From: an uncultured Gammaproteobacteria bacterium
Lineage (GTDB): Bacteria; Patescibacteriota; Microgenomatia; UBA12405
Assembly (NCBI GenBank): GCA_964549165.1
Contig: CAZJUH010000001.1
Location: 863 to 64,862, forward strand
Reading direction: 5' to 3'
Length of the DNA: 64,000 nt
Positions 8,842 through 59,888 of this stretch are shown piece after piece. The notes beneath the pieces are model-generated. The model saw only the letters and a program-made list of their open reading frames with translations, was not told the DNA's origin and did no database searches. Position numbers and translations under genes: made by a program. The first letter of the stretch is position 1. Every line of letters begins with the position of its first letter.

Positions 8842-8853
8842 AATTAAAAAACT

Positions 8854-19554: not shown

Positions 19555-22479
19555 TTATTTTCCCATCTCTACCCCCATTTTAATATCCTTCTCCAATTTT
19601 TGATTAAAAAGCAGTTTCCCTCCTACGACGCTCGCCACCGGCTCCACCGCGTTTATTTGCCAATTATTAGGTATAGAAATCAAACTCACCATGTTTGTTT
19701 CTCCGTAGCCACTCTGCTTTTGCACATAATTTAGATAAGAAAAGGTTGTTGTTTTACCCAAATCAATCACAGCGCTATATTTAACTTCAACTTCAATTTT
19801 CTTCCCAATGGGTACCATTACCAAAAAACCCACCTCCTTTTTGCTTCCATTCTGGCTAATTTTTAAATTTTCTCCACTAACTATGTTTTTTCCACTATTG
19901 CCACTCTCACTCCAATTTACTTCCTCCACCCGACTTTCTGCTGGTATGTAGACTCTTAGATAATTCTTATAATCACCCGCCGGCCAGTTGGTACTTTTGG
20001 AAGTGTTTTCGTAAACTATTTTCAGCTTATTTTTGATTGTCTTCTCTCCTATTTCTACCTCTCTTTCAATGTTTCGATACAAAAAATAATTTGCCTTATT
20101 TACCCCCATATTTGCCTCAACAAGATACAAATAATCGGCAAAACAACTAACTTGCTCTGAGCTTGTCGAAGAGCATTTTCCTTCATAAATTGACCCGTCC
20201 CACCCCGCCTCCGCCACTACCCTCGCCGCATTACTTTCATTAAAGCTTATTTGCACCTCGTTTCGATCTAAAAGTTCCACAATTGTCATCAGTAGCTTTT
20301 GCCCCACATTGCCTTCGGCCATTTTTATTTCTTCCATTAATTGTCTACTGACCCCGCCCAGAAAGCTCGCTTTTTGTCCCGAACCAGCAAAAAATTTATT
20401 ATCTGAATAAAACTCAGCCTGTTCATATAAGTTATTTTCGCTTACTTTTTCTTTAAAATCGGGCACAAATATTTCTCCCGTTACGCCGAGTACCGCCTTA
20501 ACCGACGCCAAATTTAAACCAATGACCCCATCCACCTTTCTTCCTGTTTCCTTGTCAAGAAACCACTGGACATCTCTAGAAACAAGGGGAAAACTAGCTT
20601 GCCAATTGGCGTCTCTCATATACCAGCCAGCCTCCCCGAGGTATTTTTTAATTTCTTCGGGTGGTTCCACGTGCCCCCTCAGTTGTCCGTCTGCTTCATA
20701 AATATCGCTAATTTGGAAATTTAAAAACCGTCCACTCTCAAAAGCCAAAATCGCAAAAGAACCAATAAAACCACCCGAGGGTCTAATTTCGTTTTCGTTT
20801 TGTAAAAGCACCATATATTCTCTTCTTTTACCGTCAAGACCAATCATTTCCGGTAGTATTTGGAGTATTTCGTTCATTTTTTCCACTGTTTTTCTTTGAG
20901 TTTCCAGTTTTATCTTTATTTTATTAAGATCTGTTCTAAATCGACTTGGCAGCCAGTCCCATTGTCCCGACAATCTACCTTGCAAAATTCCCATTTTTGA
21001 AATAATCGTTTCCGTTCTTTTTGCCATCTCCGAAAGCTCATTTTCCATTTCAACTTCCCCTTCACCAAAAAGGCCTTTACTAATTTTCTCTCCACTTTTC
21101 ACAAGAGCCAGATTTAACTTTAGCAGATCTATTACTTCGCTCTCAATTCGTAAAAGACTTCCTATTTTTCCAACCTCAAAAATTGCCAAATTCTTTTCGT
21201 TGTTTGTTGCCAGAACTTCTATTTTCTTTTCCGCCTCACTATAATTATTTTCTTCAATGAGACTCTGAATTCTCAAGATATTTTTTGGAATCGTCGCTAA
21301 TTTTACAATATTTACCAGTAGTACGACAAAAATCATCAATAAAACTCCAGCTACCACCCACCCCCACCATTTATTATTCTTTATTGTTTTTTCTTTAGTT
21401 TTTTGATTTTCTTCCTTTTTTACCAGGCGGGTGTCAACTTCGGTTGACATAATAGCCTGGCTTTCCTTTTCCTCCATCTTTCTCTCCGGTATCGGACTCG
21501 TTATAAAATTTTCAAATACAATTTCTTTTTCTTCCTTCGCCTCGCCAAAGTCTTCGGCGAAGGCGGGTTTCTCTTCTTCTTCAATCTCTATCTCAATTTC
21601 TTCTTGTGTTTCCTCTTTAGGTTTTTCCGCCAAAGGCGGATCAGCCTCTGGCTGAAGATTTTTTTCTTCTATTTTTCCCTCTTCCTCCTCTATCTCCACC
21701 TCAAACCTTCTCTCTCTCTTTTCTTCTTCTATTTTTGGCCTAAAATCGCTATTTTTTACAACCGCTTTTTTTCTATTATCCGTATCCACCTTCGCTACAA
21801 AATACTGCACCGCCTCTTTTGCCCCTTGTTTAAAAGGTATTTCAGCCTGCCATCTCAACGCTTGCTGGCTTTCTTTAACCATTTTTTCTTTTTCGGAAGA
21901 CTCTTCATTTTTTGACGAAGCTTGAATTACTTTAGTTCTTGTCATCTTTGCCTCATCAATTAGCACCTCCGCCACTATTTTCGAATTCGTTTCTTTCCCC
22001 CCAATATAAAATATTTTTCCTATTGTTCCAGAGAAAAAACAAGATCTGAGTATTGCCTCAACAAAATCATCAACCATCAGAACCCGATAAAACTCCCCAA
22101 GGCTTGGTAAAACCAAGTTTTTGTTTTTGGCCGCCGTTAAAAAAGCCTGCCCCAAAAAGCCCTCTTCCCCCATTCCCTCCCCATACACATTTTCCCCCAC
22201 TACTATCCTCCAGTTCAATTTAGTTTCGATCAGTTTATTTTTCCACTCCTCAGCCCTATCTTCATTATCAGCTACTAAGACCAATTTTTGATTATTTTCT
22301 AGTCTCATCCACCCACTTTCTCTTCCCTCAAAATCAAAAATATAGGCTGCTTTTTTAGGTATTTCTTCAATATCTCCATCAATTATTTTTATTCCCTGTT
22401 CTTTGAGTTTAGAAACGAGTTTTACCGCTACGTAGTTATCTGTCCCAAAAATAATTGCCACCGAGGTTAAGACTTCCAT
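19555..22479 (-). CDS. Membrane protein: N-terminal cytoplasmic Rossmann-like domain, acidic low-complexity linker, one TM helix, large extracytoplasmic DUF4012-like domain
   Basis: 974 aa. Glu/Lys-rich linker containing the repeat-element-encoded peptides LQPEADPPLAEKPKEE and ESQAIMSTEVDTRLVKKE. TM helix WWGWVVAGVLLMIFVVLLVNIV. Adjacent to Wzx-like and O-antigen-ligase-like genes. Confidence 0.5.
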   Translation of the reverse strand: MEVLTSVAIIFGTDNYVAVKLVSKLKEQGIKIIDGDIEEIPKKAAYIFDFEGRESGWMRLENNQKLVLVADNEDRAEEWKNKLIETKLNWRIVVGENVYGEGMGEEGFLGQAFLTAAKNKNLVLPSLGEFYRVLMVDDFVEAILRSCFFSGTIGKIFYIGGKETNSKIVAEVLIDEAKMTRTKVIQASSKNEESSEKEKMVKESQQALRWQAEIPFKQGAKEAVQYFVAKVDTDNRKKAVVKNSDFRPKIEEEKRERRFEVEIEEEEGKIEEKNLQPEADPPLAEKPKEETQEEIEIEIEEEEKPAFAEDFGEAKEEKEIVFENFITSPIPERKMEEKESQAIMSTEVDTRLVKKEENQKTKEKTIKNNKWWGWVVAGVLLMIFVVLLVNIVKLATIPKNILRIQSLIEENNYSEAEKKIEVLATNNEKNLAIFEVGKIGSLLRIESEVIDLLKLNLALVKSGEKISKGLFGEGEVEMENELSEMAKRTETIISKMGILQGRLSGQWDWLPSRFRTDLNKIKIKLETQRKTVEKMNEILQILPEMIGLDGKRREYMVLLQNENEIRPSGGFIGSFAILAFESGRFLNFQISDIYEADGQLRGHVEPPEEIKKYLGEAGWYMRDANWQASFPLVSRDVQWFLDKETGRKVDGVIGLNLASVKAVLGVTGEIFVPDFKEKVSENNLYEQAEFYSDNKFFAGSGQKASFLGGVSRQLMEEIKMAEGNVGQKLLMTIVELLDRNEVQISFNESNAARVVAEAGWDGSIYEGKCSSTSSEQVSCFADYLYLVEANMGVNKANYFLYRNIEREVEIGEKTIKNKLKIVYENTSKSTNWPAGDYKNYLRVYIPAESRVEEVNWSESGNSGKNIVSGENLKISQNGSKKEVGFLVMVPIGKKIEVEVKYSAVIDLGKTTTFSYLNYVQKQSGYGETNMVSLISIPNNWQINAVEPVASVVGGKLLFNQKLEKDIKMGVEMGK
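21625..21660. repeat. Double-hairpin element encoding PEADPPLAE (copy in the DUF4012-like gene)
   Basis: TTCCGCCAAAGGCGGATCAGCCTCTGGCTGAAGATT has hairpins CCGCCaaaGGCGG and CAGCCtctGGCTG. Other copies: 25297-25333 (intergenic), 35284-35319 (virB4), 59493-59544 (trmH-like); a half copy lies at 7755-7776. Confidence 0.85.
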
Positions 22480-22636
22480 GCTTCTATTCTAAAGCATCTT
22501 TATCCTTGCGGTTATATTTCGGTTATTCTGCGGTTATTTTTCTACTAAATCTGTCATAACTTGTCATACACTCTCCACAAAACGTGAAAATCCGTCATTA
22601 TTCTAAATAGGGGAATATCTCAGAAAGTAGTAATTA

Positions 22637-23839: not shown

Positions 23840-23853
23840 TATTTGATTTTACC

Positions 23854-25263
23854 TTAAATGAGCCCTAGTATTATCACCAAAAGCCAAGTGTTTTGGGGGA
23901 GTGTTAGCCAGTAATGATCAAAAAATCCCGTTATCCCTACAATCACCCAGATCCACCAAAATCTATTTTTTGATAATTTTATAATTGTAGATTGTAGATT
24001 GTAGATTATTATTGCTATCCCTAGTATCCCTATTTCACTCCAGGCGAGCAATAGAATATTGTGCACCGGCTGCATCCAGTAAAAATTACCCACTTTATAT
24101 TTCGGTAAATTAACCACAAAATTCCCGGCTCCCACTCCAAAAAGTGGATTTCTTTTTATCATTTTTATCGCCGATACCGCCAGCACTTCTCTTTTTTCAA
24201 TACTATTTGTATCCCAGCCGCCTACAAAATCGCTAATTCGATAATTAACGCTAATTACCCCCAAAATTATCAAAACAACCCCTATTCCTAACAGCAATCT
24301 TCCTATCAACAACCTGTACGGAACATCTAATGGTTTGTACGGAACATCTAATGGTTTGTACGGAACAGTCGCGACTGTTCCCTTCATTTTGATTTTTTTA
24401 TCTTTTAGGATTTCTTCAACTATCAGCATCCCTACCGTCAACACCCATACCACCCTACTTCCCGACAGGACAATTCCCATCATCGCACTCCAGTTTACTA
24501 TCCAGTAAAATATTCTATTAAAATACCCCTGTCCGCCATAACTGCGAAGCTGTTGGCGGAACCACCACCACGCCAGCAGTAAAAATCCGGCCAGGGAGTT
24601 TGGGTGGGAAAAAGTCCCGTAAACTCTTATCCACGCCTGATCAAAAACCCTGAATTGAGCTATCCCAATTCCCCCATAAGTGAATCTTCTCTCTCCAAGC
24701 CACCACCAAATTCCATTTAAGCTTCCACCTTTTACAACCTGGGCCAAACCCAAAAAAGCCTCTATTATAATCCACCAAGGGACTATCTTCATTAAATAGT
24801 TAATAATTTCATTTTTATTTTTACCAAGCAGTTTAATCGTCAACCCCCACTGACCAATCCGAAACCATCTGTAAAGTGCCACCCATTTCGCCGTCGCCAA
24901 AATTATATTTATTCCCACAAACATGGTCAGTATTAAGTTTTTGAAATTTAAAATATTTTGGATTTTTAATTTTTTATTCTTAATTGAATACTGTAGATTG
25001 AAGATTGAAGATTGTCGATTGAAGATTGATGATTTATTTATTACCCACAAAAGCCACATCAAATCCGTTAAGTAAAAAATTATTGACAAATAGTCAATTC
25101 TGATTCCTACCACACTACTTTCTTCCAGCCAAAAATGTCTCCCCAGTTGTGTTGGAATCAACAATAACCAAATTAACAGAAAGATATTTTCGATTTTAGT
25201 CTTTTTTTTCTTTTTATTGAAAATTGAAGATTGTCGATTGAAGATTTGTTTAATTCTCTCCAC
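23854..25263 (-). CDS. O-antigen ligase / polymerase-family (Wzy_C) membrane protein
   Basis: 469 aa, polytopic. Contains a family-typical exported loop with the motif FGVGAGNF. Also contains an in-frame 21-bp tandem repeat and heptad-repeat insertions. The true start may lie downstream of 25263. Confidence 0.55.
   Translation of the reverse strand: MERIKQIFNRQSSIFNKKKKKTKIENIFLLIWLLLIPTQLGRHFWLEESSVVGIRIDYLSIIFYLTDLMWLLWVINKSSIFNRQSSIFNLQYSIKNKKLKIQNILNFKNLILTMFVGINIILATAKWVALYRWFRIGQWGLTIKLLGKNKNEIINYLMKIVPWWIIIEAFLGLAQVVKGGSLNGIWWWLGERRFTYGGIGIAQFRVFDQAWIRVYGTFSHPNSLAGFLLLAWWWFRQQLRSYGGQGYFNRIFYWIVNWSAMMGIVLSGSRVVWVLTVGMLIVEEILKDKKIKMKGTVATVPYKPLDVPYKPLDVPYRLLIGRLLLGIGVVLIILGVISVNYRISDFVGGWDTNSIEKREVLAVSAIKMIKRNPLFGVGAGNFVVNLPKYKVGNFYWMQPVHNILLLAWSEIGILGIAIIIYNLQSTIIKLSKNRFWWIWVIVGITGFFDHYWLTLPQNTWLLVIILGLI
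24316..24382. repeat. In-frame 21-bp tandem repeat (2.3 copies) ending in a perfect 20-bp palindrome
   Basis: (GTACGGAACATCTAATGGTTT)x2 then GTACGGAACAGTCGCGACTGTTCC. GGAACAGTCGCGACTGTTCC is a perfect palindrome. The repeat encodes VPYKPLD repeats in the O-antigen-ligase-like protein. Confidence 0.8.
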
Positions 25264-25345
25264 GCCCTATCCTAACACATTTTGTTCTCTTTGGGCTTTT
25301 CCGCCAAAGGCGGATCAGCCTCTGGCTGAAGATTTTAGACTTTTT

Positions 25346-25855
25346 TTATTTTTTCCTTATCACAATATGCCTCTCTTCTCCCTCACCTTCCGAATCACTG
25401 GTAATTCCCCCGATTTCTGTTAGTATCATATGGCAAATTCTTCTTTCATAAGAACTCATGTTTGAGAGGTGTCTTTCTTCTCCTGTTTCTATTGTCTTAT
25501 TCGCCAGTTCTCTGGCCATGCTTTCCAGTCTTTCTTTCTGTTCTCCTCGGTAATTGTTTATATCGAGAAGTACTCTGACCCACTCTCCTAACTCTTTTTT
25601 AACCATCAAAGACAAGATAAGTTGCAAGGCCGCCATATTTCTCCCCCTAAAACCAATTAATCCGCCTGGTTTATTAACAATTACGCTCACGAGTACCTGT
25701 CCTTCTTCACCGACGACATCTTCGACAAAGGCGTTATCGACCTCATAATTGATTTTTAACAGCAATTCGCAGGTCAGATTTAATATAATTTCGTTTCTTT
25801 TTTTATTATCCATGGTGGCCATTTTATCACAACTTTTATCACTATTTTCTGTCAA
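25346..25855 (-). CDS. jag: Jag/SpoIIIJ-associated KH + R3H RNA-binding protein
   Basis: 169 aa. C-terminal R3H-like segment (SYERRICHMILTEIGGITSDSEGEGEERHIVI). Conserved position after yidC. Confidence 0.7.
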   Translation of the reverse strand: MTENSDKSCDKMATMDNKKRNEIILNLTCELLLKINYEVDNAFVEDVVGEEGQVLVSVIVNKPGGLIGFRGRNMAALQLILSLMVKKELGEWVRVLLDINNYRGEQKERLESMARELANKTIETGEERHLSNMSSYERRICHMILTEIGGITSDSEGEGEERHIVIRKK

Positions 25856-26651: not shown

Positions 26652-26656
26652 GGCTT

Positions 26657-26863
26657 CTATTCTATCAAATCCACCCCACCTCTACCACAAGGATTACATC
26701 GGCCAATTCTTTTTATTCCGAGCCACAAACCCTTTGTCACTCCATATTTTTCCACTGCCTGGTAAGTATACTGGCTACAAGTAGGGATAAAACGACAATT
26801 TTCCCCCTTAGATAAGTATTTTTTATAAAATACTAATAATTTTAAAATAATTTTTTTAAACAC
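26657..26863 (-). CDS. yidD: Membrane protein insertion efficiency factor YidD
   Basis: 68 aa with motifs [10 protein letters not shown] and GRCNPCG. Confidence 0.8.
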
Positions 26864-27159
26864 TCTTCTACTTCTCCTTCTTTTTTATTTAAAATATTTT
26901 TCTTCACCAAAAATATTCCCCGAAAACCTTCTGGAAAAATTTCCATATTCAATCTCACCGCCTCCATTAATCTTCTTTTTATTTGGTTTCTTTCCACCGC
27001 CTTTTTTGAAATCTTCTTGGAAATAATGGCACCAAATGCTTTATTTTCTGTTTTTTTGATCCACACTACCGCAAACAATTCCGTCGCCTTCAATTCTCCT
27101 TTATTTTTTATCTCCTGAAACTCAGCCTTACTCGTAATTCTGTTTATTTTTTTCAGCAC
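26842..27159 (-). CDS. rnpA: Ribonuclease P protein component
   Basis: 105 aa basic protein between rpmH and yidD, with RnpA-like basic helices. Confidence 0.75.
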
Positions 27160-27183
27160 ACTCTATTATCCCACACCAAACGT

Positions 27184-27324
27184 TTAGACTGTTAATTTTT
27201 TTCTACCCTTAGTTCTTCTCTTTTTAATTATCTTTCGACCATTGGCCGTTTCCATTCTTTTTAAAAAACCATGAACTTTGGCTCTTTTTTTCTTTTTTGG
27301 TTGAAATGTCCCTTTTTGTTTCAT
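27184..27324 (-). CDS. rpmH: 50S ribosomal protein L34
   Basis: Not in the ORF track (46 aa). The minus-strand translation is [46 protein letters not shown], a canonical L34. Confidence 0.85.
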
Positions 27325-27530
27325 GCGGTAATTCTACCATCTTTTCTCTTATTTTAGATTTTAGAATTTAGATTTTTTCACTTTCTTCAATTTGACCTCT
27401 TTTCAAATGTGGAAAACTACTTTATGATGATGTGGATAACCCAAAAGGATCTCTTGCCTCGAGACCATTTTTTTACCTGTTTTTAGTTATTTTTTGCTTT
27501 TAGTCTTTAGTCTTTAGACTTTTTTCTATT
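27325..27530. promoter_or_regulatory. oriC part 1 / dnaA promoter region (rpmH-dnaA intergenic)
   Basis: Divergent rpmH/dnaA spacer. DnaA box TGTGGATAA at 27431-27439 (reverse complement of TTATCCACA); near-box TGTGGAAAA at 27410-27418; AT-rich heptad-repeat arrays at 27341-27375 and 27487-27520. Confidence 0.6.
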
Positions 27531-28895
27531 ATGGATCTTGATCAACTTTGGAAAAATACTCAAGAGGAACTTCGTGTTGTTCTCGCTCCTGCCGTCTATC
27601 AAACCTTTGTTGTCAAAACCCAGCTTATTTCTCTTCAAAACTCTGAAGCTACTATTGCCTGTTCTAATGCTTATCTTTGTGATTTAAACCAAAAGCGTTA
27701 TTATCCGCTTTTTAAAAACGCCTTTGATAATCAAACCAAAAAAAATAATAGTCTTAAGTTTATTGTTCAGGAAATAATTAAGAGCGATGAAAACAATAAT
27801 CTCGCTTCTTCACCTCTTTTTTCTTATCAGCCCAAAAGCTCCGCCGCCCATTTTACTCAGGCTGGGCTTCACCCAAACTACACTTTCGATCATCTCATTG
27901 TTGGCAATAGCAATAATTTTGCTTATGCCGCCGCCCAAGGGATTATCAAAAACCCCGGTCTTTCCTACAATCCATTTTTTCTTTGGGGTGGAGTCGGAGT
28001 CGGCAAAACCCATTTAATGCAAGCCATTGGCCACGAACTCCTCAAAAACAAACCTGATTTAAAAATTAAATATTTCCCTGCTGAAACTTTTGGTAATGAA
28101 CTCATCAACGCCCTAAAAACCAAGGCCATTAATCAGTTTAAAAATAAATATCGCCAGCTTGATTGTATTTTAGTTGACGATATTCAGTTTTTAGCCGGCA
28201 AAGAATATATTCAGGAAGAGTTTTTTCATACCTTCAACTCCCTTCATTTAGCAGGCAAGCAGATTGTCCTTACTTCTGACCGTAAACCCGGCGATATCAA
28301 AGAGCTTGAAGACCGTCTTGTTTCCCGTTTTATGGGTGGACTCACTGTCGACATTCAACCTCCAGACCTAGAAATGCGTAGCGCCATTATTCAGCAAAAA
28401 GCCCAAAATAAAGGCATCGACCTCACTTTTGAAGCGGTTCAGTATCTCGCCGACAATATTCAGTCAAACATCCGAGATATTGAGGGTAAAATTCAAGAAA
28501 TTGCTGTTGTTTCCTTAGCTCAAAATCACAAACTGGTTGATATTGATTTGGTTCAAAACTATTTCTCTTCTCAAAACGGTTCTCTCAGCTCCACTTTTTC
28601 TTCCTCCTCTCCCAGGCTCAACGCCAGACATCTCCTTTCGGTTTGTGCTAAATATTTTAACCTAAAAACTGGTGATCTCTGTGGATCTTCCCGCAAAAAA
28701 GAATTGGTTATCGCTCGCCATATTACCGCCCATTTACTCTTAACTGAAATTAAACTACCTCTTAAAGAGGTAGGGGAACTACTTGGTGGTCGTGATCACA
28801 CCAGCATTATGCATGCCAGAGACAAGATTGCCGCTGATCTTCTTACTTCTCCACCATTAAAAGAAGTTATCAACCAAATAAAAAAATCTCTCTAA
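27531..28895 (+). CDS. dnaA: Chromosomal replication initiator DnaA
   Basis: 454 aa. AAA+ Walker A GGVGVGKTHLMQAIG, sensor motifs, and a C-terminal DnaA-box-binding domain. Confidence 0.95.
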   Translation: MDLDQLWKNTQEELRVVLAPAVYQTFVVKTQLISLQNSEATIACSNAYLCDLNQKRYYPLFKNAFDNQTKKNNSLKFIVQEIIKSDENNNLASSPLFSYQPKSSAAHFTQAGLHPNYTFDHLIVGNSNNFAYAAAQGIIKNPGLSYNPFFLWGGVGVGKTHLMQAIGHELLKNKPDLKIKYFPAETFGNELINALKTKAINQFKNKYRQLDCILVDDIQFLAGKEYIQEEFFHTFNSLHLAGKQIVLTSDRKPGDIKELEDRLVSRFMGGLTVDIQPPDLEMRSAIIQQKAQNKGIDLTFEAVQYLADNIQSNIRDIEGKIQEIAVVSLAQNHKLVDIDLVQNYFSSQNGSLSSTFSSSSPRLNARHLLSVCAKYFNLKTGDLCGSSRKKELVIARHITAHLLLTEIKLPLKEVGELLGGRDHTSIMHARDKIAADLLTSPPLKEVINQIKKSL

Positions 28896-29177
28896 ACTTA
28901 TCCACATTTTTAAGGAGATTATCCACCTACTTATTCACTTATTTTACTGATTTTTTCCACCGAAACTTTCCCAAATCCCACTCGCTTACTATAAGCCAAA
29001 AAATATTTAATCAAAACCAATTTTAGGTTAAATTCAACTTACAAACACTAATTTATTAAAAAATATTTGGATTTTTAGGCTTTAGGTTTTAGATTTTTTC
29101 TCTTTCTCCACTTTTCCCCCAGCCCTATTAACAATACTACTATTTTCTAAACCCCCTATCTGTTAATATATAGGTCA
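28896..29177. promoter_or_regulatory. oriC part 2 (dnaA-dnaN intergenic) with clustered DnaA boxes
   Basis: TTATCCACA at 28898-28906, TTATCCACC at 28919-28927, TTATTCACT at 28930-28938. An AT-rich tract and a heptad array follow at 29071-29100. Confidence 0.65.
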
Positions 29178-30296
29178 ATGAAGCTTTCCCTTTTACAAGA
29201 AAACATCTCTCTCGCTCTCAACCATACTTCTCGTTTTGTCGCTTCCAAAATTCAACTTCCTATCTTAAACCATATTCTTTTTTCCACCGACAAAGGTCGT
29301 CTAAAATTATCTGCCACCAATTTAGAGCTTGGTATTAATTACTGGCTCGGAGCCAAGATTGAGGATGAGGGTTCTTTTTGCCTTCCCGCCAAAGAAATCA
29401 CGGAATTTGTTTCTTATTTACCTACTGGTCGTCTTGATCTTTTCTTAAAAAACAACAATATTCTGACTCTATCTTCAAATAAAACCGAATCAAACTTTGC
29501 CTGTCTACCTCCGGCTGATTTTCCCGAAATTCCCTCTCTTGATCCCAAAACTGCCTTTGAAATTGATTTACCAATATTGACTGAGGCGATTAATCAAATC
29601 GCTTTTGCTGCTGCTTCCGATGATTCCCGTCCTATTTTGACCGCCATTCTTTGTACTTTTTCTTCAAGTGAACTTAGTTTAGTGGCCACCGATGGCTTTA
29701 GATTATCTTTAAAAAATATAAAATTAACGAGTCCTCTCGATCTTTCAACTGGGACCAAAACTCTTTTAATTCCCGCCAAAAGTTTGCTTGAAATCGTCAA
29801 ACTGGCTAAAAATGCTAAAAAAATCAAAATAGGACTCACAAAAGATTCCAATCAGGTAGTTTTCGTCTTAGAGGATTTGGAGCTTGTTTCCCGGCTTATC
29901 GAGGGTGATTATCCTGACTATCATCGAATTATCCCAAAGGAAGCAATAACTAAAATTTATCTAAATCGCGACGAACTCGTTCAGGCCATCAAGCAAAGCT
30001 CTGTTTTTGCTCGTCAATCTGCCAATGTTGTTAAATTAAGTCTTAAAGCCTCTTCAATTGAGCTTTCTGCCAATGCTCCTCAAATTGGTCAAAATAAAGT
30101 TAGTGTTGATGCCCGTATCGAAGGAGAATCCCTAGAAATTGCCTTTAACTACAAATTTATCTCTGATTTTTTGACTATTTGTCAAGGCGAGGAAATTATT
30201 ATTGAGTTAAACGAAGCTCTTTCTCCTGGTCTTTTCCGTGATCAGTCTGACCCCGCCCTCACTCATATTATTATGCCTGTTAGGATTCAAGATTAG
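29178..30296 (+). CDS. dnaN: DNA polymerase III beta sliding clamp
   Basis: 372 aa with the three-domain clamp architecture, directly after dnaA. Confidence 0.9.
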   Translation: MKLSLLQENISLALNHTSRFVASKIQLPILNHILFSTDKGRLKLSATNLELGINYWLGAKIEDEGSFCLPAKEITEFVSYLPTGRLDLFLKNNNILTLSSNKTESNFACLPPADFPEIPSLDPKTAFEIDLPILTEAINQIAFAAASDDSRPILTAILCTFSSSELSLVATDGFRLSLKNIKLTSPLDLSTGTKTLLIPAKSLLEIVKLAKNAKKIKIGLTKDSNQVVFVLEDLELVSRLIEGDYPDYHRIIPKEAITKIYLNRDELVQAIKQSSVFARQSANVVKLSLKASSIELSANAPQIGQNKVSVDARIEGESLEIAFNYKFISDFLTICQGEEIIIELNEALSPGLFRDQSDPALTHIIMPVRIQD

Positions 30297-30398
30297 CCAT
30301 ATTATTATGTTTACCAAGCCGAAGCTTTAGCGCAGGCTGGCCTGTTAGGATTCAAGATTAGTTTTTTTAGGTTTTAGAATTTAGATTTTTTCTGTTTT

Positions 30399-30758
30399 TT
30401 ATTCTTCTTCAAATATCAGCCTTTGACTTTCTGTCGCGATCTTATTTTCTCTCATCCAGTTGTATATTTCTTGTTTAATTATTTTCTCATCCACCTTTTC
30501 ACTTTTCTTAATCAAAAGAGTATTTGGCTCTGTGTAGCGCTCTACAACATAGCCAACTCCCTTATAAGGTAACTTTTCCCATAATGGATACTCAACACTG
30601 ATTTGAGAGGAAATAGTTGGGCTTGGAGAGATAATTTGGAGCACTTCCTTTTGTTCCCACTTTACATTTCTATATTTAAATTTTACTATCCCCATTGCTG
30701 TCGCAATCACCAGCAGTATGATTATTAATCGGTATTTATATATATCTTTAAAATTCAT
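30399..30758 (-). CDS. Small membrane-anchored protein (T4SS-cluster accessory candidate)
   Basis: 119 aa with an N-terminal TM helix (LIIILLVIATAMGIV). Overlaps the upstream gene by 4 nt and is last in the minus-strand operon with virB4. Confidence 0.4.
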   Translation of the reverse strand: MNFKDIYKYRLIIILLVIATAMGIVKFKYRNVKWEQKEVLQIISPSPTISSQISVEYPLWEKLPYKGVGYVVERYTEPNTLLIKKSEKVDEKIIKQEIYNWMRENKIATESQRLIFEEE

Positions 30759-31681: not shown

Positions 31682-31694
31682 ATTTTATTTTAGC

Positions 31695-34811: not shown

Positions 34812-34825
34812 TCAAAAATTATACC

Positions 34826-37288
34826 TTAAGTCGCATCATCGTTTCCAAATAGCTTGTCGTATGTCATCTTTGCCTCATCTTTTTTTGCTTCTGCTGTCTT
34901 TATTTCTTCTTTGGGCTTTAGGCTTTCTTCTATTTTTGTCGTAAATTCTGCCTTTGTTTTTTTGGCGAGCTGTGGTGGTTGTGGAATCACTGGCTCTTTT
35001 TGTTGGTTAATAAACAGGGGTTTTGTCGGTGCTTCGAATTTTGGCAGGGGCGGAAGTGGGGGCGTCGATTTAAATAATTCTTGATATTTGGGTAAAGATC
35101 CACCGGTATTTTTATCCTCTTCGCTATTGTTTTTTTCACTACTTACCTCCTTAAGCTCTTCTTCTGTTTTCTTATTTTCTTCTTCTTCCATTTGGGTGAC
35201 TCTTTTTAGAAGCGCCTCTTCCGGTGATTCCTCCACCTCAGACTTAAAGAGCAATGTTGGCTTCTGTTCCTCCTCTTTAGGCTTTTCCACCAAAGGCGGA
35301 TCAGCCTCTGGCTGAAGATTTTCTTCCGGCTTTACCTCAATTAAAACTTCTTTTACTGGTTCTGTCACCACCGTTTTCTCTTCCTCTTTTTCTTCTTTTT
35401 TTACCAGGCTGGTATCGACGTCAGTCGATATAATAGCCTGGCTTTCTTTCTTCACCAGTGCTGCCTGTTTTTCGGCAATTTTTTGCCGAAGTATCTCTTC
35501 TGGATTTGAAGTAATTAATTTATGTTCTTCTTCTGAGGCGATTACCTGAATTGCCACGTGATTTTGTCCGGCAAAAAATATTCCCTCTCCTTTATCTGCT
35601 GACAAGAGCAGTTGTTTTTCCCCTTCAGATAGGTAAAACGTTTCTCCAATTAGGTCGATAGCGGCACTGTGTTGTTTGAGCAGTATTTGAATTGAGCTGT
35701 TTGTCACTATTTCTTTTCCATAAGGAGTGTTTAAAAAGTCGTCAACATCTTGGGTGATTGTTGTTACTCCGAGATAATATTTTCGACCTCTTTTAATAAT
35801 TCCCCTGAGAAATGCCGCCGAATCATCATATTGCATCAAATACCAAGCCTCATCCACCACCAAAATTCTCTTTTTAAGTTCTTTTTTCACAATTGTCCAA
35901 ATGTAGTCAAGTATTATGTGCATTGCCACTGGTCGTAAACTTTCTTCAAGGTTGCGAATTCCAAAAACCACAAAGCTATTATTTAAGTTTACGGTTGTTT
36001 TTTGATTAAAAATTCCCGCAAAGGAACCCTTAATATATTTTTCCAGTCTTGCCGCCAGGCTTTTCGCCTTTTCTTCTTCGGCTCCAATCAGGGCTTTGTA
36101 TAAGTCTTCAATTAGAGGCGCTTCTCGGGTCTGGGTCTCGGGATCTGGTGATATTCCCTTGGCCTTATAGGCCTCCATAATAGACCTATCTAAAATTGAT
36201 TCCTCGATAGGATCCATGGCCCCGAGCATTATTTTAAACATTTTATGTAAGGTTAGGATTTTGTCATTTAAGGCGTTTTCCCCCTCTTCTGTTACCAGCG
36301 ACAAATCAAAAGGATTGATTTTTGAAGCTTCTCCATAGCCAAAGGCAATATATTGGCCTCCCACCGATTCGGCTAGACTCTTATATTCATTCTCTGGGTC
36401 AATAACAATAATGTCGGTTCCGAGCATTAGTGACCTCATTGCTTCGAGTTTGATCATATATGATTTACCGGCACCGGCCGAGGCAAAAACCACCGAGTTG
36501 TAGTTTAGCATCGAAAATCTATCAAAAATTACGAGAGATCCGTTATGTTCATTGATTCCAAACATAATTCCCTTATCATCTGATAGGTCCGACGATACAA
36601 AAGGAAAAGTACTGGCGAGGGAGGTTGTATCCATATTTCTGGTAATGTTTAGTCTATCGGAACATATCGGTAAAGTCGTTATAAAACCCTCCTCCATTTG
36701 TAGACTGGCTTTTTTGGAAATAATCATCAGCGCTCCTAGTCCCGATTCCAAGTTTTTGGTTGAAGTATCAAGTTCTTCTTTGGTTTTTGCCGACAAGGTC
36801 AGATATAGGCCAAACTGGAAAAATCTTTCTTCTCCCTTGACAAGGTCTGCTTGCAAGGTCAGGGCATCTTCAAGTTTTGCCTGAGTTGCGGGGTTTACTA
36901 TTTTACCTCTTTGGATATCGGTACTTAGCTCTGCCTCCATTTCGGCAATTTTTCGCCTTAGATCATCAAGAATTTCTTTCCCGTCGGTTGGATAAATAAA
37001 CATCGAAATTTTTAATGACGCATCAAAATTAATTAATGTTGATAACCAATTAAGTCCCACAAATCTTGGATATCCAGCCACAAAACAGGTTCGGTAATAT
37101 TTGTTATCAATTCTGATGTGGTTAAAATCAACTTCAATTGCCGAGGGGGCAATAATGTCTTTAATTGATACCAGTCCCTCCACAAATTGCTTCGCCTCGC
37201 CAACAGTGGGCTTTGCCTCAATCGTAGGGCTGGAAACCGACTTGTCGGTTTTAATAGCCCTATTTTTTATTAAATCTAATATTTTCAT
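34826..37288 (-). CDS. VirB4/TrbE-family type IV secretion ATPase with an added Pro/Glu/Lys-rich C-terminal tail
   Basis: 820 aa. Walker A VVFASAGAGKSYMIKLE, Walker B region RILVVDEAWYLM, and conserved ...GRKYYLGVTTITQDVDDF. The C-terminal ~230 aa is low-complexity and contains the repeat-encoded ESQAIISTDVDTSLVKKE and NLQPEADPPLVEKPKEE. Confidence 0.75.
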   Translation of the reverse strand: MKILDLIKNRAIKTDKSVSSPTIEAKPTVGEAKQFVEGLVSIKDIIAPSAIEVDFNHIRIDNKYYRTCFVAGYPRFVGLNWLSTLINFDASLKISMFIYPTDGKEILDDLRRKIAEMEAELSTDIQRGKIVNPATQAKLEDALTLQADLVKGEERFFQFGLYLTLSAKTKEELDTSTKNLESGLGALMIISKKASLQMEEGFITTLPICSDRLNITRNMDTTSLASTFPFVSSDLSDDKGIMFGINEHNGSLVIFDRFSMLNYNSVVFASAGAGKSYMIKLEAMRSLMLGTDIIVIDPENEYKSLAESVGGQYIAFGYGEASKINPFDLSLVTEEGENALNDKILTLHKMFKIMLGAMDPIEESILDRSIMEAYKAKGISPDPETQTREAPLIEDLYKALIGAEEEKAKSLAARLEKYIKGSFAGIFNQKTTVNLNNSFVVFGIRNLEESLRPVAMHIILDYIWTIVKKELKKRILVVDEAWYLMQYDDSAAFLRGIIKRGRKYYLGVTTITQDVDDFLNTPYGKEIVTNSSIQILLKQHSAAIDLIGETFYLSEGEKQLLLSADKGEGIFFAGQNHVAIQVIASEEEHKLITSNPEEILRQKIAEKQAALVKKESQAIISTDVDTSLVKKEEKEEEKTVVTEPVKEVLIEVKPEENLQPEADPPLVEKPKEEEQKPTLLFKSEVEESPEEALLKRVTQMEEEENKKTEEELKEVSSEKNNSEEDKNTGGSLPKYQELFKSTPPLPPLPKFEAPTKPLFINQQKEPVIPQPPQLAKKTKAEFTTKIEESLKPKEEIKTAEAKKDEAKMTYDKLFGNDDAT
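35402..35442. repeat. 40-bp nested palindromic element encoding SQAIISTDVDTSLV (copy in virB4)
   Basis: ACCAGGCTGGTATCGACGTCAGTCGATATAATAGCCTGGCT: outer arms CCAGGCT/AGCCTGG, inner ATCGAC/GTCGAT. Other copies: 21422-21462, 38429-38467, 38471-38510, 38522-38561. Confidence 0.85.
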
Positions 37289-37338
37289 TTTATTTTTTAA
37301 TTTATTTAGGTTTTAGACTTTAGATTTTAGTCTTTTTT

Positions 37339-38040
37339 TTACTGTTTCCTCGTTACCGCTGCGGCGGTGTAATCAATGTTTTGTAATCTTTGGTTGTTAG
37401 CGAGATCTTCATTGTAAGTTCTGTAAAATAAATCAATTAATTCTTTGGTATTTAAGGCTTTAATTTCCAGTCCCAGTCTCGAAAAAAGTCTGACGATATG
37501 ATCTTCTTTTGGTTTAAGGGCCGCCTTAGCCTTTTCTAAAATATATTCTTTTGAGTATGGCAGTTCTGCCTTCTTTTTAATTGGATTTAACACCGCAAAA
37601 GCTTGTTTTTGGGCATTTTTTATTCCGAGTTCAAGGCTGGAAAAAGGAACCACCACATAAAAGGTTTTCGACAAAACATCATTTCTTTTTACCGTTTCTT
37701 CCACGAACTTTTTGTATGAAGTAATCCTGTCCTTTAATTTTTGATTTACTTGTTTATTTTTTGCCTCTTCCAAATTGTTTAAGTAATTTCCTACGTCTTT
37801 GGTGGTTGAATTAATGACAATTTGAATCGTAAAATTTAACGAATTTAAAATCCCTCCATAGGCAAAGACTAGAGCTCCCTGTTCTCTTTCTGATAATAAA
37901 TCAAAATTTACTGAGGAGACCTGAAGTACCATTGAGGCTGAGCCGTCTTTTAGAAGCACTATTCCATCAACGATATCTTCAATTGGCAAATTGTCTTGAG
38001 TGCTTCCTTTTATGGCATTTTTTAGAGGATCATTTGACAT
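37339..38040 (-). CDS. Hypothetical soluble protein immediately upstream of virB4
   Basis: 233 aa with no TM helix. Co-oriented with virB4 and separated from it by a 50-nt spacer containing a heptad repeat array. Confidence 0.45.
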   Translation of the reverse strand: MSNDPLKNAIKGSTQDNLPIEDIVDGIVLLKDGSASMVLQVSSVNFDLLSEREQGALVFAYGGILNSLNFTIQIVINSTTKDVGNYLNNLEEAKNKQVNQKLKDRITSYKKFVEETVKRNDVLSKTFYVVVPFSSLELGIKNAQKQAFAVLNPIKKKAELPYSKEYILEKAKAALKPKEDHIVRLFSRLGLEIKALNTKELIDLFYRTYNEDLANNQRLQNIDYTAAAVTRKQ

Positions 38041-38067
38041 GCTATTTAATAATAACCTATTTGTCTA

Positions 38068-38982
38068 TTATTTGGCGAGAATTTTTATTGGTTCAATAAT
38101 TTTTCCGGTTAGGTTTATTTCTACCCGGTCAAATTCTAAATTTTCTTTTTCTGTCACTACCAAATATTTCCCATTACTAAGTTGAGTCAAAGTTTTAAAC
38201 TGTCCCAGCTTGTTTGTTTTCAGCACTCGGCTCGGATTGCCATCTTTATCTTGAATTTCAATAATCGCCCCCTCTACTATTTTGTGATTTAGATCGAGAA
38301 CCATTCCTACTACCAGATTGGGCAAATCAGGAATATCTGGCATGGGAATTTCTCCAAATACCACTGTTCCCGTTGCCCCCAGTTTTTCTGTTTTTAATCC
38401 CAAATTAGCCGCCTTCGCCTCTTCCTTTGCCAGGCTGGTATCGACGTCAATCGGTTTTGTACCCTGGTTTACCAGGCTGGTGTCAACTCCTGTTGACATA
38501 ATAGCCTGGCTTTCTTCTTTTACCAGGCCGGTATCGACGTCAGTCGATTTAATAGCCTGGCTCTCTCTCCCGATTGACGGTAAAGAGTTTATAAACTCTT
38601 TGACTTTTTTGTCCTCTTTAATTGGCACCACCATCTCTTCTTCCTCGTCACTTTTTAATTGTTTGCTCAAATCAATTTCCAGCCAGTTTTCCGGACTTTC
38701 TTTTTTATAAGTAAAAATTGTCGGTGAATAAATTGATTTAATAAAAGCCATCAGCCAGGTTTCTAGTGGTCGATCTTGAAAGGGGACAAAGGCGAGGGCG
38801 AGACCTCCAGCCGCAAAGATAAAAATTAACGGCCATTTAATAAAAAAAACGAGCTTACTTGAATTAATTAACAGGGCAATAATCACTCCCCCGGCTGCTT
38901 TCCCAAATTGTTTTAGGGTCATATCTCCCACGAGTTTAAATTCGTAGGAGGTTATTTGTTGTGGAATCGGGTGTTGTTCCAT
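38068..38982 (-). CDS. Membrane protein with N-terminal TM hairpin (VirB3-like topology), three tandem repeat-element-encoded peptide copies, C-terminal beta-sandwich-like domain
   Basis: 304 aa. Two TM helices near the N-terminus. Three copies of ...SQAI(K/M)ST(D/G)VDT(G/S)LV... are each encoded by a 40-bp palindromic element (38429-38561). Confidence 0.45.
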   Translation of the reverse strand: MEQHPIPQQITSYEFKLVGDMTLKQFGKAAGGVIIALLINSSKLVFFIKWPLIFIFAAGGLALAFVPFQDRPLETWLMAFIKSIYSPTIFTYKKESPENWLEIDLSKQLKSDEEEEMVVPIKEDKKVKEFINSLPSIGRESQAIKSTDVDTGLVKEESQAIMSTGVDTSLVNQGTKPIDVDTSLAKEEAKAANLGLKTEKLGATGTVVFGEIPMPDIPDLPNLVVGMVLDLNHKIVEGAIIEIQDKDGNPSRVLKTNKLGQFKTLTQLSNGKYLVVTEKENLEFDRVEINLTGKIIEPIKILAK

Positions 38983-59225: not shown

Positions 59226-59888
59226 CTATCTCAGCCGAGCAAATTCTTCTATTAGTTTTTCTTTTTCACTTTTAGTTAATTTAAAATCGCCCTTCGTCTC
59301 GCCGTAGCTTTTTGCGGAGGCGGACCTTTGTCTATCAATTTCATACATCACTATCCCAGCAGTTACTGATATATTTAGACTCTGCACCATTCCCTTCATT
59401 GGGATATAAATTTTTTCGTCGGCTCCTTTTATGGCTTCTTCAGAAAGTCCTCGATGCTCGTTCCCTAGTACTATGGCAATTTTTTGAAGTTTGTCCGCCA
59501 AAGGCGGATCCGCCTCTGGCGGAAAGATTGTAGATTGAAGATTGATAGTCTCTTTGTCGAGAACTGTGGCATAAATTTTGTATCCGTTTTTTCGAAGCTG
59601 CCCATAGCATTCGTCAATATTTTTAAATATTTTAAAGCTCAGCCATTTGTTGGCGCTGGCCGAGGAGGCCTTGCCAATTTTTTTTGGATTAATGGCTTTT
59701 TCTTTTGAATAAACTAGATATATTTTTTGAAAGCCAAAGGCATCGGCGCTTCGCCACACCGCCGCCGCGTTATGCGGATCGGCAATATTTTCCAGTACTA
59801 TCACCCCTTCCTGTCGATTTTCAATCATTCTTTTAATTTTTCTTTGCCTCGCCGTAGCTTCAGCGTAGGCAGGTCCATTTTTTATCAT
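59226..59888 (-). CDS. SpoU/TrmH-family RNA 2'-O-methyltransferase
   Basis: 220 aa. Motifs IVLGNEHRGLS and SLNISVTAGIVMYE. Carries three repeat-element insertions (ETINLQSTIFPPEADPPLAD; PAYAEATAR; SASAKSYGET). Confidence 0.75.
   Translation of the reverse strand: MIKNGPAYAEATARQRKIKRMIENRQEGVIVLENIADPHNAAAVWRSADAFGFQKIYLVYSKEKAINPKKIGKASSASANKWLSFKIFKNIDECYGQLRKNGYKIYATVLDKETINLQSTIFPPEADPPLADKLQKIAIVLGNEHRGLSEEAIKGADEKIYIPMKGMVQSLNISVTAGIVMYEIDRQRSASAKSYGETKGDFKLTKSEKEKLIEEFARLR

What the first reader, a model, noticed from the sequence alone, without database searches (positions are those of the whole stretch)
21422..38561. Two further palindromic element families that encode recurring peptides (PEADPPLAE and SQAIxSTDVDTSLV) in unrelated proteins
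Family A is a ~36-bp double hairpin (CCGCCaaaGGCGG + CAGCCtctGGCTG). It occurs in the DUF4012-like protein, virB4, the trmH-like gene and once intergenically (25297-25333). Wherever it lies in a CDS, it is read as (L)QPEADPPLAE. Family B is a 40-bp nested palindrome (CCAGGCTGGTATCGACGTCAGTCGATATAATAGCCTGG). It is read as ESQAI(I/M)ST(D/E)VDT(S/R)LVKKE in the DUF4012-like protein, in virB4, and three times in tandem in the 304-aa membrane protein (38429-38561). The two families co-occur, in swapped order, in the acidic tails of the 974-aa protein and of VirB4. This looks like element-driven growth of low-complexity linker regions. Because both families are palindromic, they would give the same peptide class in either insertion orientation only by coincidence. 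The strict peptide conservation therefore suggests orientation-specific insertion or selection.
Basis: seen in the sequence. Interest (0 to 1): 0.8.

Follow-up and report, generated by a model that had tools for sequence, protein, structure and literature searches.

The report
Tiny hairpin repeats inside protein genes
Two families of short DNA hairpin repeats sit inside and between genes of a Candidatus Shapirobacteria (CPR) genome, where they are translated as recurring peptides; one of them is a 30-base double hairpin that also turns up in at least a dozen bacterial phyla and inside essential genes, and I could not find it described anywhere.

Summary
In detail: 4 copies of family A and 5 of family B lie at the stated places, where chance predicts about 0.

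Both families are nucleic-acid hairpin elements, not protein motifs.

**Family A**
- It is a 30-nt unit, T-CNGCC-NNN-GGCNG-A + T-CNGCC-NNN-GGCNG-A, an inverted dimer of a 15-nt hairpin. One monomer lies at 7755-7769.
- Orthologous alleles differ by exactly these 30 nt, with no target duplication. The unit occurs in both orientations.
Hosts include rpoC, clpB, uvrA, carB, purH and T9SS sorting domains.
- It is read in six orientation/frame combinations. The two-hairpin fold is supported by compensatory changes.

**Family B**
- It is a 38-nt nested hairpin restricted to a Shapirobacteria subclade.
- Orthologous copies keep the hairpin through compensatory changes while the peptide drifts.

- "Strict peptide conservation" is a small-sample effect. 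The CAGCC/GGCTG variant makes TGA in frame 1 of both orientations.
- Element-driven linker growth is supported. Orientation-specific insertion is not.

**Closest known:** REP dimers and intragenic REPs/RPEs. The GTAG/CGTC tags are absent and the mobilising enzyme is unknown. No match was found in Rfam, phage or plasmid collections, or the literature.

The parts
21626..21655 (-). Family A unit A1 (30 nt: T + CAGCC-AGA-GGCTG + AT + CCGCC-TTT-GGCGG + A) in the 974-aa DUF4012 protein, read QPEADPPLAE
25300..25329 (-). Family A unit A2, intergenic, 17 nt downstream of the stop of the 169-aa KhpB/R3H gene; core identical to A1
35286..35315 (-). Family A unit A3 in the VirB4-like tail, read QPEADPPLVE (hairpin 2 has a G-T wobble); absent from the orthologue in L122
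59494..59523 (-). Family A unit A4 (CCGCC/GGCGG variant in both hairpins) in the SpoU methylase loop, read PPEADPPLAD; an exact 30-nt indel relative to orthologue P0007
7755..7769 (+). Family A monomer: a single 15-nt hairpin, T-CCGCC-AGA-GGCGG-A, inside a (GATTGTA)n heptad array, intergenic
21613..21676 (-). Composite around A1. Removing the 30-nt unit restores a heptad array AAAATCT|AAAACCTAAAG. The same holds for 25287-25350 and 35273-35336.
   Evidence: (family D10)
21423..21460 (-). Family B copy B1 (inner stem TGTCAAC/GTTGACA) in the 974-aa protein, read SQAIMSTEVDTRLV
35404..35441 (-). Family B copy B2 (inner stem TATCGAC/GTCGATA) in the VirB4-like tail, read SQAIISTDVDTSLV; RNA fold -22.3 kcal/mol, z -7.3
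38430..38560 (-). Three tandem family B copies (B3 at 38430-38467, degenerate; B4 at 38472-38509; B5 at 38523-38560) in the disordered linker of the 304-aa PrgI-like protein
19555..22479 (-). Host gene: 974-aa DUF4012 protein
34826..37288 (-). Host gene: 820-aa VirB4/TraG-type ATPase
38068..38982 (-). Host gene: 304-aa PrgI + CarboxypepD_reg-like protein
59226..59888 (-). Host gene: 220-aa SpoU/TrmH-type RNA methyltransferase

Best explanation
Both families are REP/RPE-like palindromic repeat elements. Their conserved feature is a DNA or RNA hairpin, and the recurring peptides are by-products of translating them.

**Family A.** It is a 30-nt inverted dimer of a 15-nt GC-rich stem-loop, T-CNGCC-NNN-GGCNG-A. 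It is gained or lost as an exact 30-nt unit without target-site duplication. It occurs in either orientation at Y-T-T|A-R-A sites. These sites are typically unit boundaries of heptanucleotide arrays, loops of other hairpin elements, and protein loops or linkers. Because 15 and 30 are multiples of three, every insertion keeps the reading frame. Purifying selection then removes copies that create stop codons or harmful peptides. That leaves a few recurring peptides, concentrated in disordered segments. The family is very widespread among CPR and other mostly uncultivated phyla. I infer that it is mobilised in trans by an unidentified enzyme that recognises the hairpins.

**Family B.** It is a lineage-restricted 38-nt nested hairpin (7 + 7 bp) inside a ~51-nt unit. 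It is old in the PrgI-like linker. In this lineage it has been amplified in tandem and copied into the VirB4 tail and the DUF4012 protein.

**Shown:** repetition, hairpin covariation, the exact 30-nt indel, both orientations, multiple frames, presence/absence among orthologues, and the taxonomic spread.

**Inferred:** the direction of events (insertion versus precise loss), the existence and nature of the mobilising enzyme, and selfishness versus a cis function.
For: **Repetition beyond chance.**

**Exact 30-nt indel with no duplication.** The empty SpoU allele reads CAATCTT|CAGTCTT. The filled allele reads CAATCTT[TCTGCCAGAGGCGGATCAGCCTTTGGCTGA]CAATCTT. The same pattern is seen in the intergenic region next to dnaN, window versus L127. 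Removing the unit from A1-A3 restores a heptad array.

**Both orientations.**

**Six orientation/frame readings** among 125 copies.

**Covariation, family A.** In 43 distinct sequences collected by mismatch count alone, the two-hairpin fold is 95.8% paired. Six pairs show compensatory change, and 0/500 shuffles reach the observed values. The alternative single long hairpin is not supported.

**Covariation, family B.** Seven pairs show compensatory change, with 0/500 shuffles. One example is CCAGGCT/AGCCTGG changing to CCAGGTC/GACCTGG while the peptide changes from QAIMSTEVDTSLV to QVIMSSKDDTDLV.

**Flank logo (n = 124).** Position -1 is T in 122 copies, +1 is A in 121, and -3 is almost never a purine.

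**Inserts in real conserved genes.** Pfam/NCBIfam confirm PurH, RpoC, CarB, ClpB, UvrA, an M1 peptidase and T9SS sorting domains. Deleting the 10 aa in silico raises the TIGR04183 score from 49.3 to 55.5 bits and from 26.4 to 35.9 bits.

**Host range.** Host GC content runs from 30% to 65% across more than 12 lineages. Hosts include a cultured isolate and long-read MAGs.

**Insert sites are predicted disordered**.

**The B peptide has no detectable relatives** among 1.84 billion representative proteins.
Against: - No transposase or other mobilising gene was identified. The parts of the window scanned against Pfam hold none, and whole genomes could not be examined.
- No element was found in IMG/VR, GenBank phages or plasmids, so no vector for cross-phylum spread is known.
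- Noncoding copies show no orientation bias relative to GC skew (21 of 39). This does not favour an IS200/IS605-type single-strand mechanism.
- The first B copy sits at the same position of the PrgI-like linker in orthologues of 66-88% identity and keeps its hairpin. Long-term retention of this kind fits a cis function or concerted evolution better than a decaying selfish insertion.
- The cross-phylum 'identity' is partly ascertainment. The scan required 25 fixed bases, and bystander copies in the same loci are much more variable in loops and spacer.
Confidence: 0.7

Rival explanations
1. The hairpins are functional cis-acting signals kept by selection at each site. Candidates are mRNA stabilisers or processing sites, translation pause sites between protein domains, binding sites for a conserved nucleoid or repair protein, or DNA-uptake signals. 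On this view their spread reflects usefulness rather than selfish mobility.
For: - Compensatory evolution keeps the hairpin at an orthologous PrgI-linker position across 66-88%-identical orthologues.
- Family A keeps its stem sequence (CNGCC) in hosts of 30-65% GC.
- Several copies lie 20-60 nt from tRNA or tmRNA genes.
- Uptake sequences are also found in both orientations and in tolerated reading frames (established knowledge of Haemophilus USS and Neisseria DUS).
- The element is absent from phage and plasmid collections.
Against: - Presence and absence differ between close relatives at the same site.
- Copies sit in arbitrary, unrelated genes and in both orientations.
- The hairpin is followed by A-runs, not T-runs, so it is not an intrinsic terminator.
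- Density is only about 1 per 13-16 kb in the window, far below uptake-sequence densities.
- No Rfam family matches.
Confidence: 0.2
2. Family B, and the window's A composites, are ordinary coding tandem repeats or linker modules. They were spread by unequal crossing-over, gene conversion or ectopic recombination between Lys/Glu-rich linkers. On this view the hairpin is incidental and no transposition is involved.
For: - B copies share about 62-70 nt including GAAAG...TAAAAGAAGAA flanks, and form a 51-nt tandem array.
- All 12 known B copies are in coding sequence, in one orientation and one frame.
- B is rare: a single hit in the metagenome collection, and that hit is an orthologue.
Against: - Seven stem pairs change on both sides while the peptide drifts. 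That is not expected if only the peptide or simple duplication mattered.
- For A, the unit is inverted relative to the same heptad context in L127, which duplication of a composite cannot produce.
Confidence: 0.08
3. The peptides (PEADPPLAE, SQAIxSTDVDTSLV) are selected short protein motifs or an old domain, and the DNA palindromy is secondary.
For: Within the window all coding copies use one frame and one orientation.
Against: - The same DNA is read in six ways elsewhere.
- An intergenic copy and an intergenic monomer exist.
- The B peptide diverges while its hairpin is kept.
- phmmer of the triple B segment finds nothing in 1.84 billion representatives.
- The inserts are predicted disordered.
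Confidence: 0.02

Closest known systems
REP elements and their inverted dimers (REPINs; GTAG- and CGTC-tagged superfamilies, Di Nocera et al. 2013, PMC3733652)
   Same: - Short GC-rich stem-loops that occur as singletons and as closely spaced inverted dimers.
- Often nested inside other palindromes.
- Found in several phyla.
- Some copies lie inside genes, including uvrA and other repair genes.
- Thought to be non-autonomous elements mobilised in trans.
   Different: - There is no GTAG or CGTC tag; the flanks are YTT...ARA.
- The stems are only 5 bp with 3-nt loops, the monomer is 15 nt and the dimer exactly 30 nt.
- About two thirds of the sampled copies lie in long open frames, against a small minority for REPs.
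- No RAYT association is known.
- The hosts are mainly CPR and other uncultivated phyla.
Rickettsia palindromic elements (RPEs; Ogata et al. 2000, from my own knowledge; RPE-4/6 equated with CGTC REPs in PMC3733652)
   Same: - Palindromic repeats inserted in frame into unrelated protein-coding genes of a small-genome bacterium.
- They add peptide segments that are tolerated at surface or linker positions.
- They are also found intergenically.
   Different: - RPE-1 is about 100-150 bp and restricted to one genus.
- Family A is 30 nt and spans many phyla.
- There is no sequence similarity and no CGTC tag.
[quoted passage not shown]
   Same: - Coding repeats whose DNA has dyad symmetry.
- Tandem arrays of variable number in membrane-associated proteins.
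- Patchy distribution attributed to horizontal transfer and intragenomic shuffling. This resembles family B in the PrgI-like protein.
   Different: - PARCELs are 25-residue amphipathic domains defined by a protein HMM.
- B is a 17-residue unit in a disordered acidic linker. Its peptide is not conserved while its hairpin is.
DNA uptake sequences (USS/DUS)
   Same: - Short motifs in both orientations.
- Often found as inverted pairs.
- Common in coding regions in tolerated frames.
   Different: - Uptake sequences arise by point mutation at about 1 per kb and are family-specific.
- Family A is a discrete 30-nt indel at about 1 per 15 kb and is shared across phyla.

Membership tests
REP superfamilies (GTAG / CGTC) | Short (20-40 bp) GC-rich imperfect palindrome repeated many times | tested here: met
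   13-nt stem-loops and 28-nt dimers; 158 copies in 1.04 Mb of fetched loci; covariation supports the stems
REP superfamilies (GTAG / CGTC) | Conserved GTAG or CGTC tetranucleotide at one end | tested here: not met
   Flank logo of 124 copies: 5' Y-(T/C/G)-T and 3' A-R-A; no GTAG, CTAC, CGTC or GACG
REP superfamilies (GTAG / CGTC) | Occurs as singletons and inverted dimers | tested here: met
   Monomer at 7755-7769; dimers with a 2-nt spacer elsewhere
REP superfamilies (GTAG / CGTC) | Predominantly extragenic, downstream of genes | tested here: not met
   83 of 125 copies lie in open frames of at least 360 nt. Ten were checked, and nine of them lie inside Pfam/NCBIfam-confirmed proteins
REP superfamilies (GTAG / CGTC) | Associated RAYT (HUH/Y1) transposase gene in the genome | not testable with these tools
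   Only a 64-kb window and 8-kb loci are available. No transposase appeared among the 30 window ORFs scanned
Rickettsia palindromic elements | In-frame insertion of a palindromic repeat into unrelated protein-coding genes | tested here: met
   SpoU 10-aa indel; PurH, RpoC, CarB, ClpB, UvrA, T9SS domains
Rickettsia palindromic elements | Element length about 100-150 bp (RPE-1), or CGTC-tagged REP (RPE-4/6); Rickettsia lineage | tested here: not met
   30-nt unit with no CGTC tag; hosts are CPR and other phyla
MITE | Terminal inverted repeats plus a target-site duplication | tested here: not met
   Comparison of empty and filled sites shows no duplicated bases
IS200/IS605-type (HUH) non-autonomous derivatives (PATE/REP-like) | Hairpin ends, no target duplication, insertion 3' of a fixed tetra- or pentanucleotide, strand bias relative to replication | tested here: inconclusive
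   Hairpins and the lack of duplication are met. The 5' flank is only Y-T-T. Noncoding copies show no GC-skew bias, 21 of 39
PARCEL | 25-residue amphipathic tandem repeat detected by a protein HMM | tested here: not met
   The B period is 51 or 42 nt (17 or 14 aa). The segment is predicted disordered. There are no protein-level relatives. The PARCEL HMM itself was not run.
Intrinsic terminator | GC-rich hairpin followed by a T-run on the transcribed strand | tested here: not met
   Units are preceded by T and followed by A on both strands
Any Rfam family | Score at or above the gathering threshold | tested here: not met
   No hit in the whole window at gathering thresholds, and only chance-level hits around A2
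DNA uptake sequence | About 1 copy per kb, lineage-specific motif that accumulates by point mutation | tested here: not met
   4 dimers and 1 monomer in 64 kb; discrete 30-nt indels; shared across phyla

The most novel reading that the evidence does not exclude
Family A may be the visible tip of an undescribed, pan-bacterial superfamily of 15-nt hairpin monomers and 30-nt dimers. These insert precisely, without target duplication and always in multiples of three. They enter intergenic heptad arrays, other hairpins and essential genes (rpoC, clpB, uvrA, carB, purH, T9SS sorting domains) in CPR, Omnitrophota, Elusimicrobiota, Ignavibacteriota, Planctomycetota, Chloroflexota, Bdellovibrionota and others. 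They would be mobilised by a machinery that is not a known transposase, possibly a conserved host enzyme, and would spread without phage or plasmid carriers.
Probability: 0.35. Interest if true: 0.85.

Novelty: new variant of a known kind. Interest (0 to 1): 0.66.

Why it matters
If this holds, a 30-base element smaller than any described bacterial mobile element is shaping proteins across a large part of the uncultivated bacterial world.

- It adds 10-residue segments to core enzymes.
- It builds the disordered linkers of CPR surface and secretion proteins.
- It produces spurious 'conserved peptides' in protein databases.

The precise, duplication-free, frame-preserving indel and the strict hairpin covariation define a clear biochemical target: which enzyme recognises T-CNGCC-NNN-GGCNG-A? 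They also give a simple marker for strain-level variation in CPR genomes.

For annotation, recognising these units would prevent mis-clustering of proteins. It would also explain length variation among orthologues.

Tried and rejected
1. **Rfam.** The whole window at gathering thresholds and the A2 region at E ≤ 10 gave nothing meaningful.
2. **Hammerhead-like reading** of CUGAU-hairpin-AAA. I rejected it by inspection: the GA and G of the catalytic core are missing, and the CUGA is absent in the CCGCC variant.
3. **Xer/dif-like 11-6-11 architecture or a dimeric protein site.** Covariation links positions 2-12, not 2-27. The single-long-hairpin/dyad model is not supported.
4. **Terminator.** The flanks are the wrong way round.
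5. **Sequencing or assembly artefact, or mis-binned CPR contigs.** Copies occur in a cultured isolate, a SAG, a 1.65-Mb long-read contig, GC-rich contigs and T9SS contexts.
6. **Phage or plasmid carriage.** There were 0 hits in IMG/VR and none in GenBank phages. Plasmids gave only E ~0.9 matches.
7. **Replication-strand bias.** None was seen for noncoding copies.
8. **Protein-level distribution of B.** A word-indexed search with concatenated B peptides returned nothing, which is uninformative. phmmer of the 55-aa triple repeat gave 0 hits.
9. **Literature.** Searches for the DNA strings, the peptides and the concept in CPR found no description.
10. **Possible insertion in a tRNA D-loop (L096).** ARAGORN calls no tRNA there. 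I did not pursue it.

Full report
**Observation.** The window is a chromosomal stretch of a Candidatus Shapirobacteria (Microgenomates, CPR) genome. It holds rnpA-yidC-jag next to dnaA-dnaN and a CPR-type T4SS-like cluster of PrgI-like, TraC-like, VirB4 and M23 peptidase genes.

Family A has four copies, with cores at 21627-21654, 25301-25328, 35287-35314 and 59495-59522. Family B has five copies, at 21423-21460, 35404-35441, 38430-38467, 38472-38509 and 38523-38560. Shuffles give about 0.01 and 0.00 expected matches.

All copies share one orientation. The coding A copies are in frame 0 and read (Q/P)PEADPPL(A/V)(E/D). The B copies are in frame 2 and read SQAIxSTxVDTxLV.

**Anatomy of family A.** In these copies the two N of hairpin 1 covary: C-G 62, A-T 48, G-C 6 and T-A 4, with only 4 exceptions. 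The base before the core is T in 122 of 124 copies, and the base after it is A in 121 of 124.

A search by mismatch count alone (up to 6 substitutions, no structural information) in the 1.04 Mb of fetched DNA found 158 copies and 43 distinct sequences. The differences are loop and spacer changes or double, compensatory stem changes. Examples are CAGCC/GGCTG, GCGCC/GGCGC and CCGGC/GCCGG, in either hairpin.

On that alignment the two-hairpin fold is 95.8% paired. Six of its ten pairs change on both sides, and 0/500 shuffles reach the observed values. The alternative single long hairpin (dyad) model does not stand out from its controls.

A single hairpin, T-CCGCCAGAGGCGG-A, lies at 7755-7769. The unit is therefore an inverted dimer of a 15-nt monomer: T-stem-loop-stem-A plus T-stem-loop-stem-A, 30 nt in all.

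**Family A is gained or lost as an exact 30-nt unit.** The SpoU methylase orthologues differ in length at three hot spots. At the nucleotide level the allele P0007 reads CAATCTT|CAGTCTT. Its near-twin P0002 reads CAATCTT[TCTGCCAGAGGCGGATCAGCCTTTGGCTGA]CAATCTT. The window and P0004 carry other variants of the unit at the same site. There is no target-site duplication.

Three further comparisons agree.
- Deleting the 30 nt from A1-A3 restores a heptanucleotide array, AAAATCT|AAAGCCTAAAG. The window holds at least 12 'empty' copies of this kind of array. A4 sits between (CAATCTT)n units.
- The intergenic region between the 119-aa gene and dnaN is empty in the window and filled in L127.
- L127 carries the same variant in opposite orientations within the same heptad context, once in the PrgI-like linker and once in that intergenic region. 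The 30-mer, not the surrounding composite, is therefore the unit of change.

Other relatives add more cases.
- The L126 VirB4 tail holds an antisense copy (FPPKADQPMAE) nested in a CCTCCC...GGGAGG hairpin.
- The L127 Fpg has an antisense copy (RPKADPPLAE) nested in a CCCCCTTT...AAAGGGGG stem, in a loop that is empty in L124.
- L122, a close VirB4 orthologue, lacks A3. It carries other palindromes there, plus a diverged antisense A near the C-terminus.

**Frames and peptides.** Across 125 copies the unit lies in long open frames in 83 cases. It is read as follows:

| Peptide | Orientation, frame | Copies |
|---|---|---|
| SAKGGSASGG | antisense, frame 1 | 49 |
| SARGGSAFGG | sense, frame 1 | 11 |
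| PPKADQPLAE | antisense, frame 0 | 11 |
| QPEADPPLAE | sense, frame 0 | 6 |
| frame-2 peptides | both orientations | 3 + 3 |

Ten of the long frames were checked against Pfam or NCBIfam. Nine are real proteins with the unit inside the protein:
- PurH, with the insert inside the MGS domain, in a 65%-GC Dehalococcoidia contig.
- RpoC, CarB, ClpB (just after the AAA lid), UvrA, an M1 peptidase and a subtilase.
- T9SS sorting domains of Ignavibacteria, including the cultured Stygiobacter electus. There the unit splits the NPF|NP motif in either orientation.

In the tenth (L115, AcrB) the unit lies at aa 11-20 of the open frame, ahead of the first Pfam-matched residue (aa 29). It may therefore be upstream of the true start.

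Removing the 10 residues in silico raises the TIGR04183 score in two of the three cases tested.

The CAGCC/GGCTG variant creates TGA in frame 1 of both orientations, which can be read directly from the sequence. It is mostly noncoding (29 noncoding, 16 coding). CCGCC/GGCGG is mostly coding (55 coding, 7 noncoding). This explains why the window's CAGCC copies can only be in frame 0 or 2, and why they all read QPEADPPLAE. Because the unit is nearly its own reverse complement, the other orientation would have read PPKADQPLAE.

**Family B.** B is a 7 + 7 bp nested hairpin with a fold energy of -22.3 kcal/mol and z = -7.3. It is rare. The metagenome scan found one hit, the VirB4 orthologue of a close relative, and there were none in the other loci.

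In the PrgI-like protein the segment between SLPSxGRE and NLxLKxEKLGATG is hypervariable among orthologues. It spans 0 to about 75 residues and holds 0-3 B copies, sometimes an A unit, and sometimes other palindrome-derived peptides.

The first B copy sits at the same place in orthologues of 66-88% identity and keeps the hairpin through compensatory changes:
- outer stem CCAGGCT/AGCCTGG changes to CCAGGTC/GACCTGG;
- inner stem TATCGAC/GTCGATA changes to TGTCAAC/GTTGACA and to TGTCATC/GATGACA;
- a second L126 copy has a different, longer inner stem.

Meanwhile the peptide changes from QAIMSTEVDTSLV to QVIMSSKDDTDLV. Seven of the 14 pairs change on both sides, with 0/500 shuffles reaching the observed values.

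The copy in the VirB4 tail is seen only in the window and L122. No orthologue of the DUF4012 protein was sampled, so the age of that copy is untested. The VirB4 copy at least looks recent. phmmer of the triple repeat finds no relative among 1.84 billion representative proteins, so B is not an old protein domain.

**Structure context.** AlphaFold models built on the orthologue alignments give pLDDT below 50 for SpoU residues 124-132 (the A4 insert) and for PrgI-like residues 138-209 (the B array). The elements therefore occupy a surface loop and a disordered linker.

**What it is.** Both families behave like REP/RPE-type palindromic repeats. REPs form inverted dimers, are nested in other palindromes and are sometimes intragenic, including in uvrA (PMC3733652). 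RPEs are the classic in-frame case.

Family A fails the defining tags of the two REP superfamilies, since it has neither GTAG nor CGTC. It has no target duplication, so it is not a MITE. It shows no replication-strand bias, and it is much smaller than RPE-1. I therefore file it as a new variant of a known kind rather than as a member of any named family.

The mobilising activity is unknown. No transposase lies in the scanned parts of the window. No copies occur in IMG/VR, GenBank phages or plasmids. Nothing matches in Rfam or in the searchable literature.

**Caveats.**
- The genome scan demanded 25 fixed bases and was capped. The taxonomic tally is 67 CPR and 53 non-CPR loci from at least 12 other lineages (my hand count). 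It is a sample, not a census, and the cross-phylum 'identity' is partly ascertainment.
- The coding/noncoding call uses a crude criterion, an open frame of at least 360 nt spanning the unit.
- Insertion cannot be told from precise excision.
- The long retention of the first B copy with an intact hairpin leaves real room for a cis function or for concerted evolution.

Noticed in passing
window 3375-3408, 6484-6517, 19531-19564, 27354-27387, 27501-27530, 29075-29108, 30367-30400, 37306-37339, 45629-45662, 46657-46684, 54581-54614, 60299-60328: Arrays of heptanucleotide repeats, read on the minus strand as AAAATCT/AAAGCCT/AAAGTCT. Most are intergenic, and one abuts the dnaA start codon. In coding sequence they are read as (S)LKPKEE. 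Every family A dimer in the window sits exactly at a heptad boundary. Other phyla have their own heptads around the same unit (GGATTTC in L049, GACTTTT in L056, TGCTGTT in L103).
   Followed up: partly
window 7710-7753, 23978-24007, 24977-25027, 25217-25246, 45676-45705, 54928-54957, 59524-59545: A second heptad family, (CAATCTT/CAATCTA)n on the minus strand. It is translated as QSSIFNRQSSIFN in the N-terminus of the 469-aa Wzy-like protein and as NLQSTIF in the SpoU loop.
   Followed up: partly
window 5367-5412, 18239-18284, 48236-48263, 50648-50693: A hairpin family, CCCCTCC-TTGTCAA-GGGAGGGG followed by TTGGGGGTG. In relatives and in other phyla the family A unit is often nested in the loop of this kind of hairpin (L015, L041, L080, L105, L114, the L126 VirB4 tail). 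It is read as PPTPSL..KGGE-type peptides.
   Followed up: partly
window 9679-9710, 55681-55712, 59827-59858, 19397-19441, 59269-59313, about 21540-21575: A repeat family, CTTTGCCTCGCCGTAGC. It is read as ATARQ at the SpoU N-terminus, SYGETK at its C-terminus and PAFAEDFGEAK in the 974-aa protein. SpoU orthologues show presence/absence at all three hot spots.
   Followed up: partly
window 26842-30296: rnpA-yidC-jag lies divergent from dnaA-dnaN, which marks the probable replication origin. Even so, GC skew stays negative across the whole 64 kb, with no switch.
   Followed up: no
window 8166-10092: Five tandem paralogues of small T4SS_pilin (PF18895) proteins, upstream of three large proteins with no Pfam match (10096-15656).
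   Followed up: no
L096 about 584-611 (minus strand): In an Omnitrophota contig the family A unit interrupts a tRNA-like 5' fragment, GGGTGTAGCTCAGTT[unit]GGTTAGA. ARAGORN calls no tRNA there.
   Followed up: partly
L017, L020, L022, L068, L073, L110, L111: Family A copies lie within about 20-60 nt of tRNA or tmRNA genes in several phyla.
   Followed up: partly
L124 15750-16751 (Fpg) and L070 1-912: Other palindrome-derived inserts lie in the same proteins. Examples are NTSLREGTPTKQS in Fpg and a 35-residue insert in the Stygiobacter T9SS domain. This suggests many more such element families across phyla.
   Followed up: no
window 39031-39390 and upstream; L001 51-631: A PhdYeFM antitoxin/PIN toxin pair lies immediately upstream of the PrgI-like gene. 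It is conserved in L126 but absent in L127 and L128.
   Followed up: no
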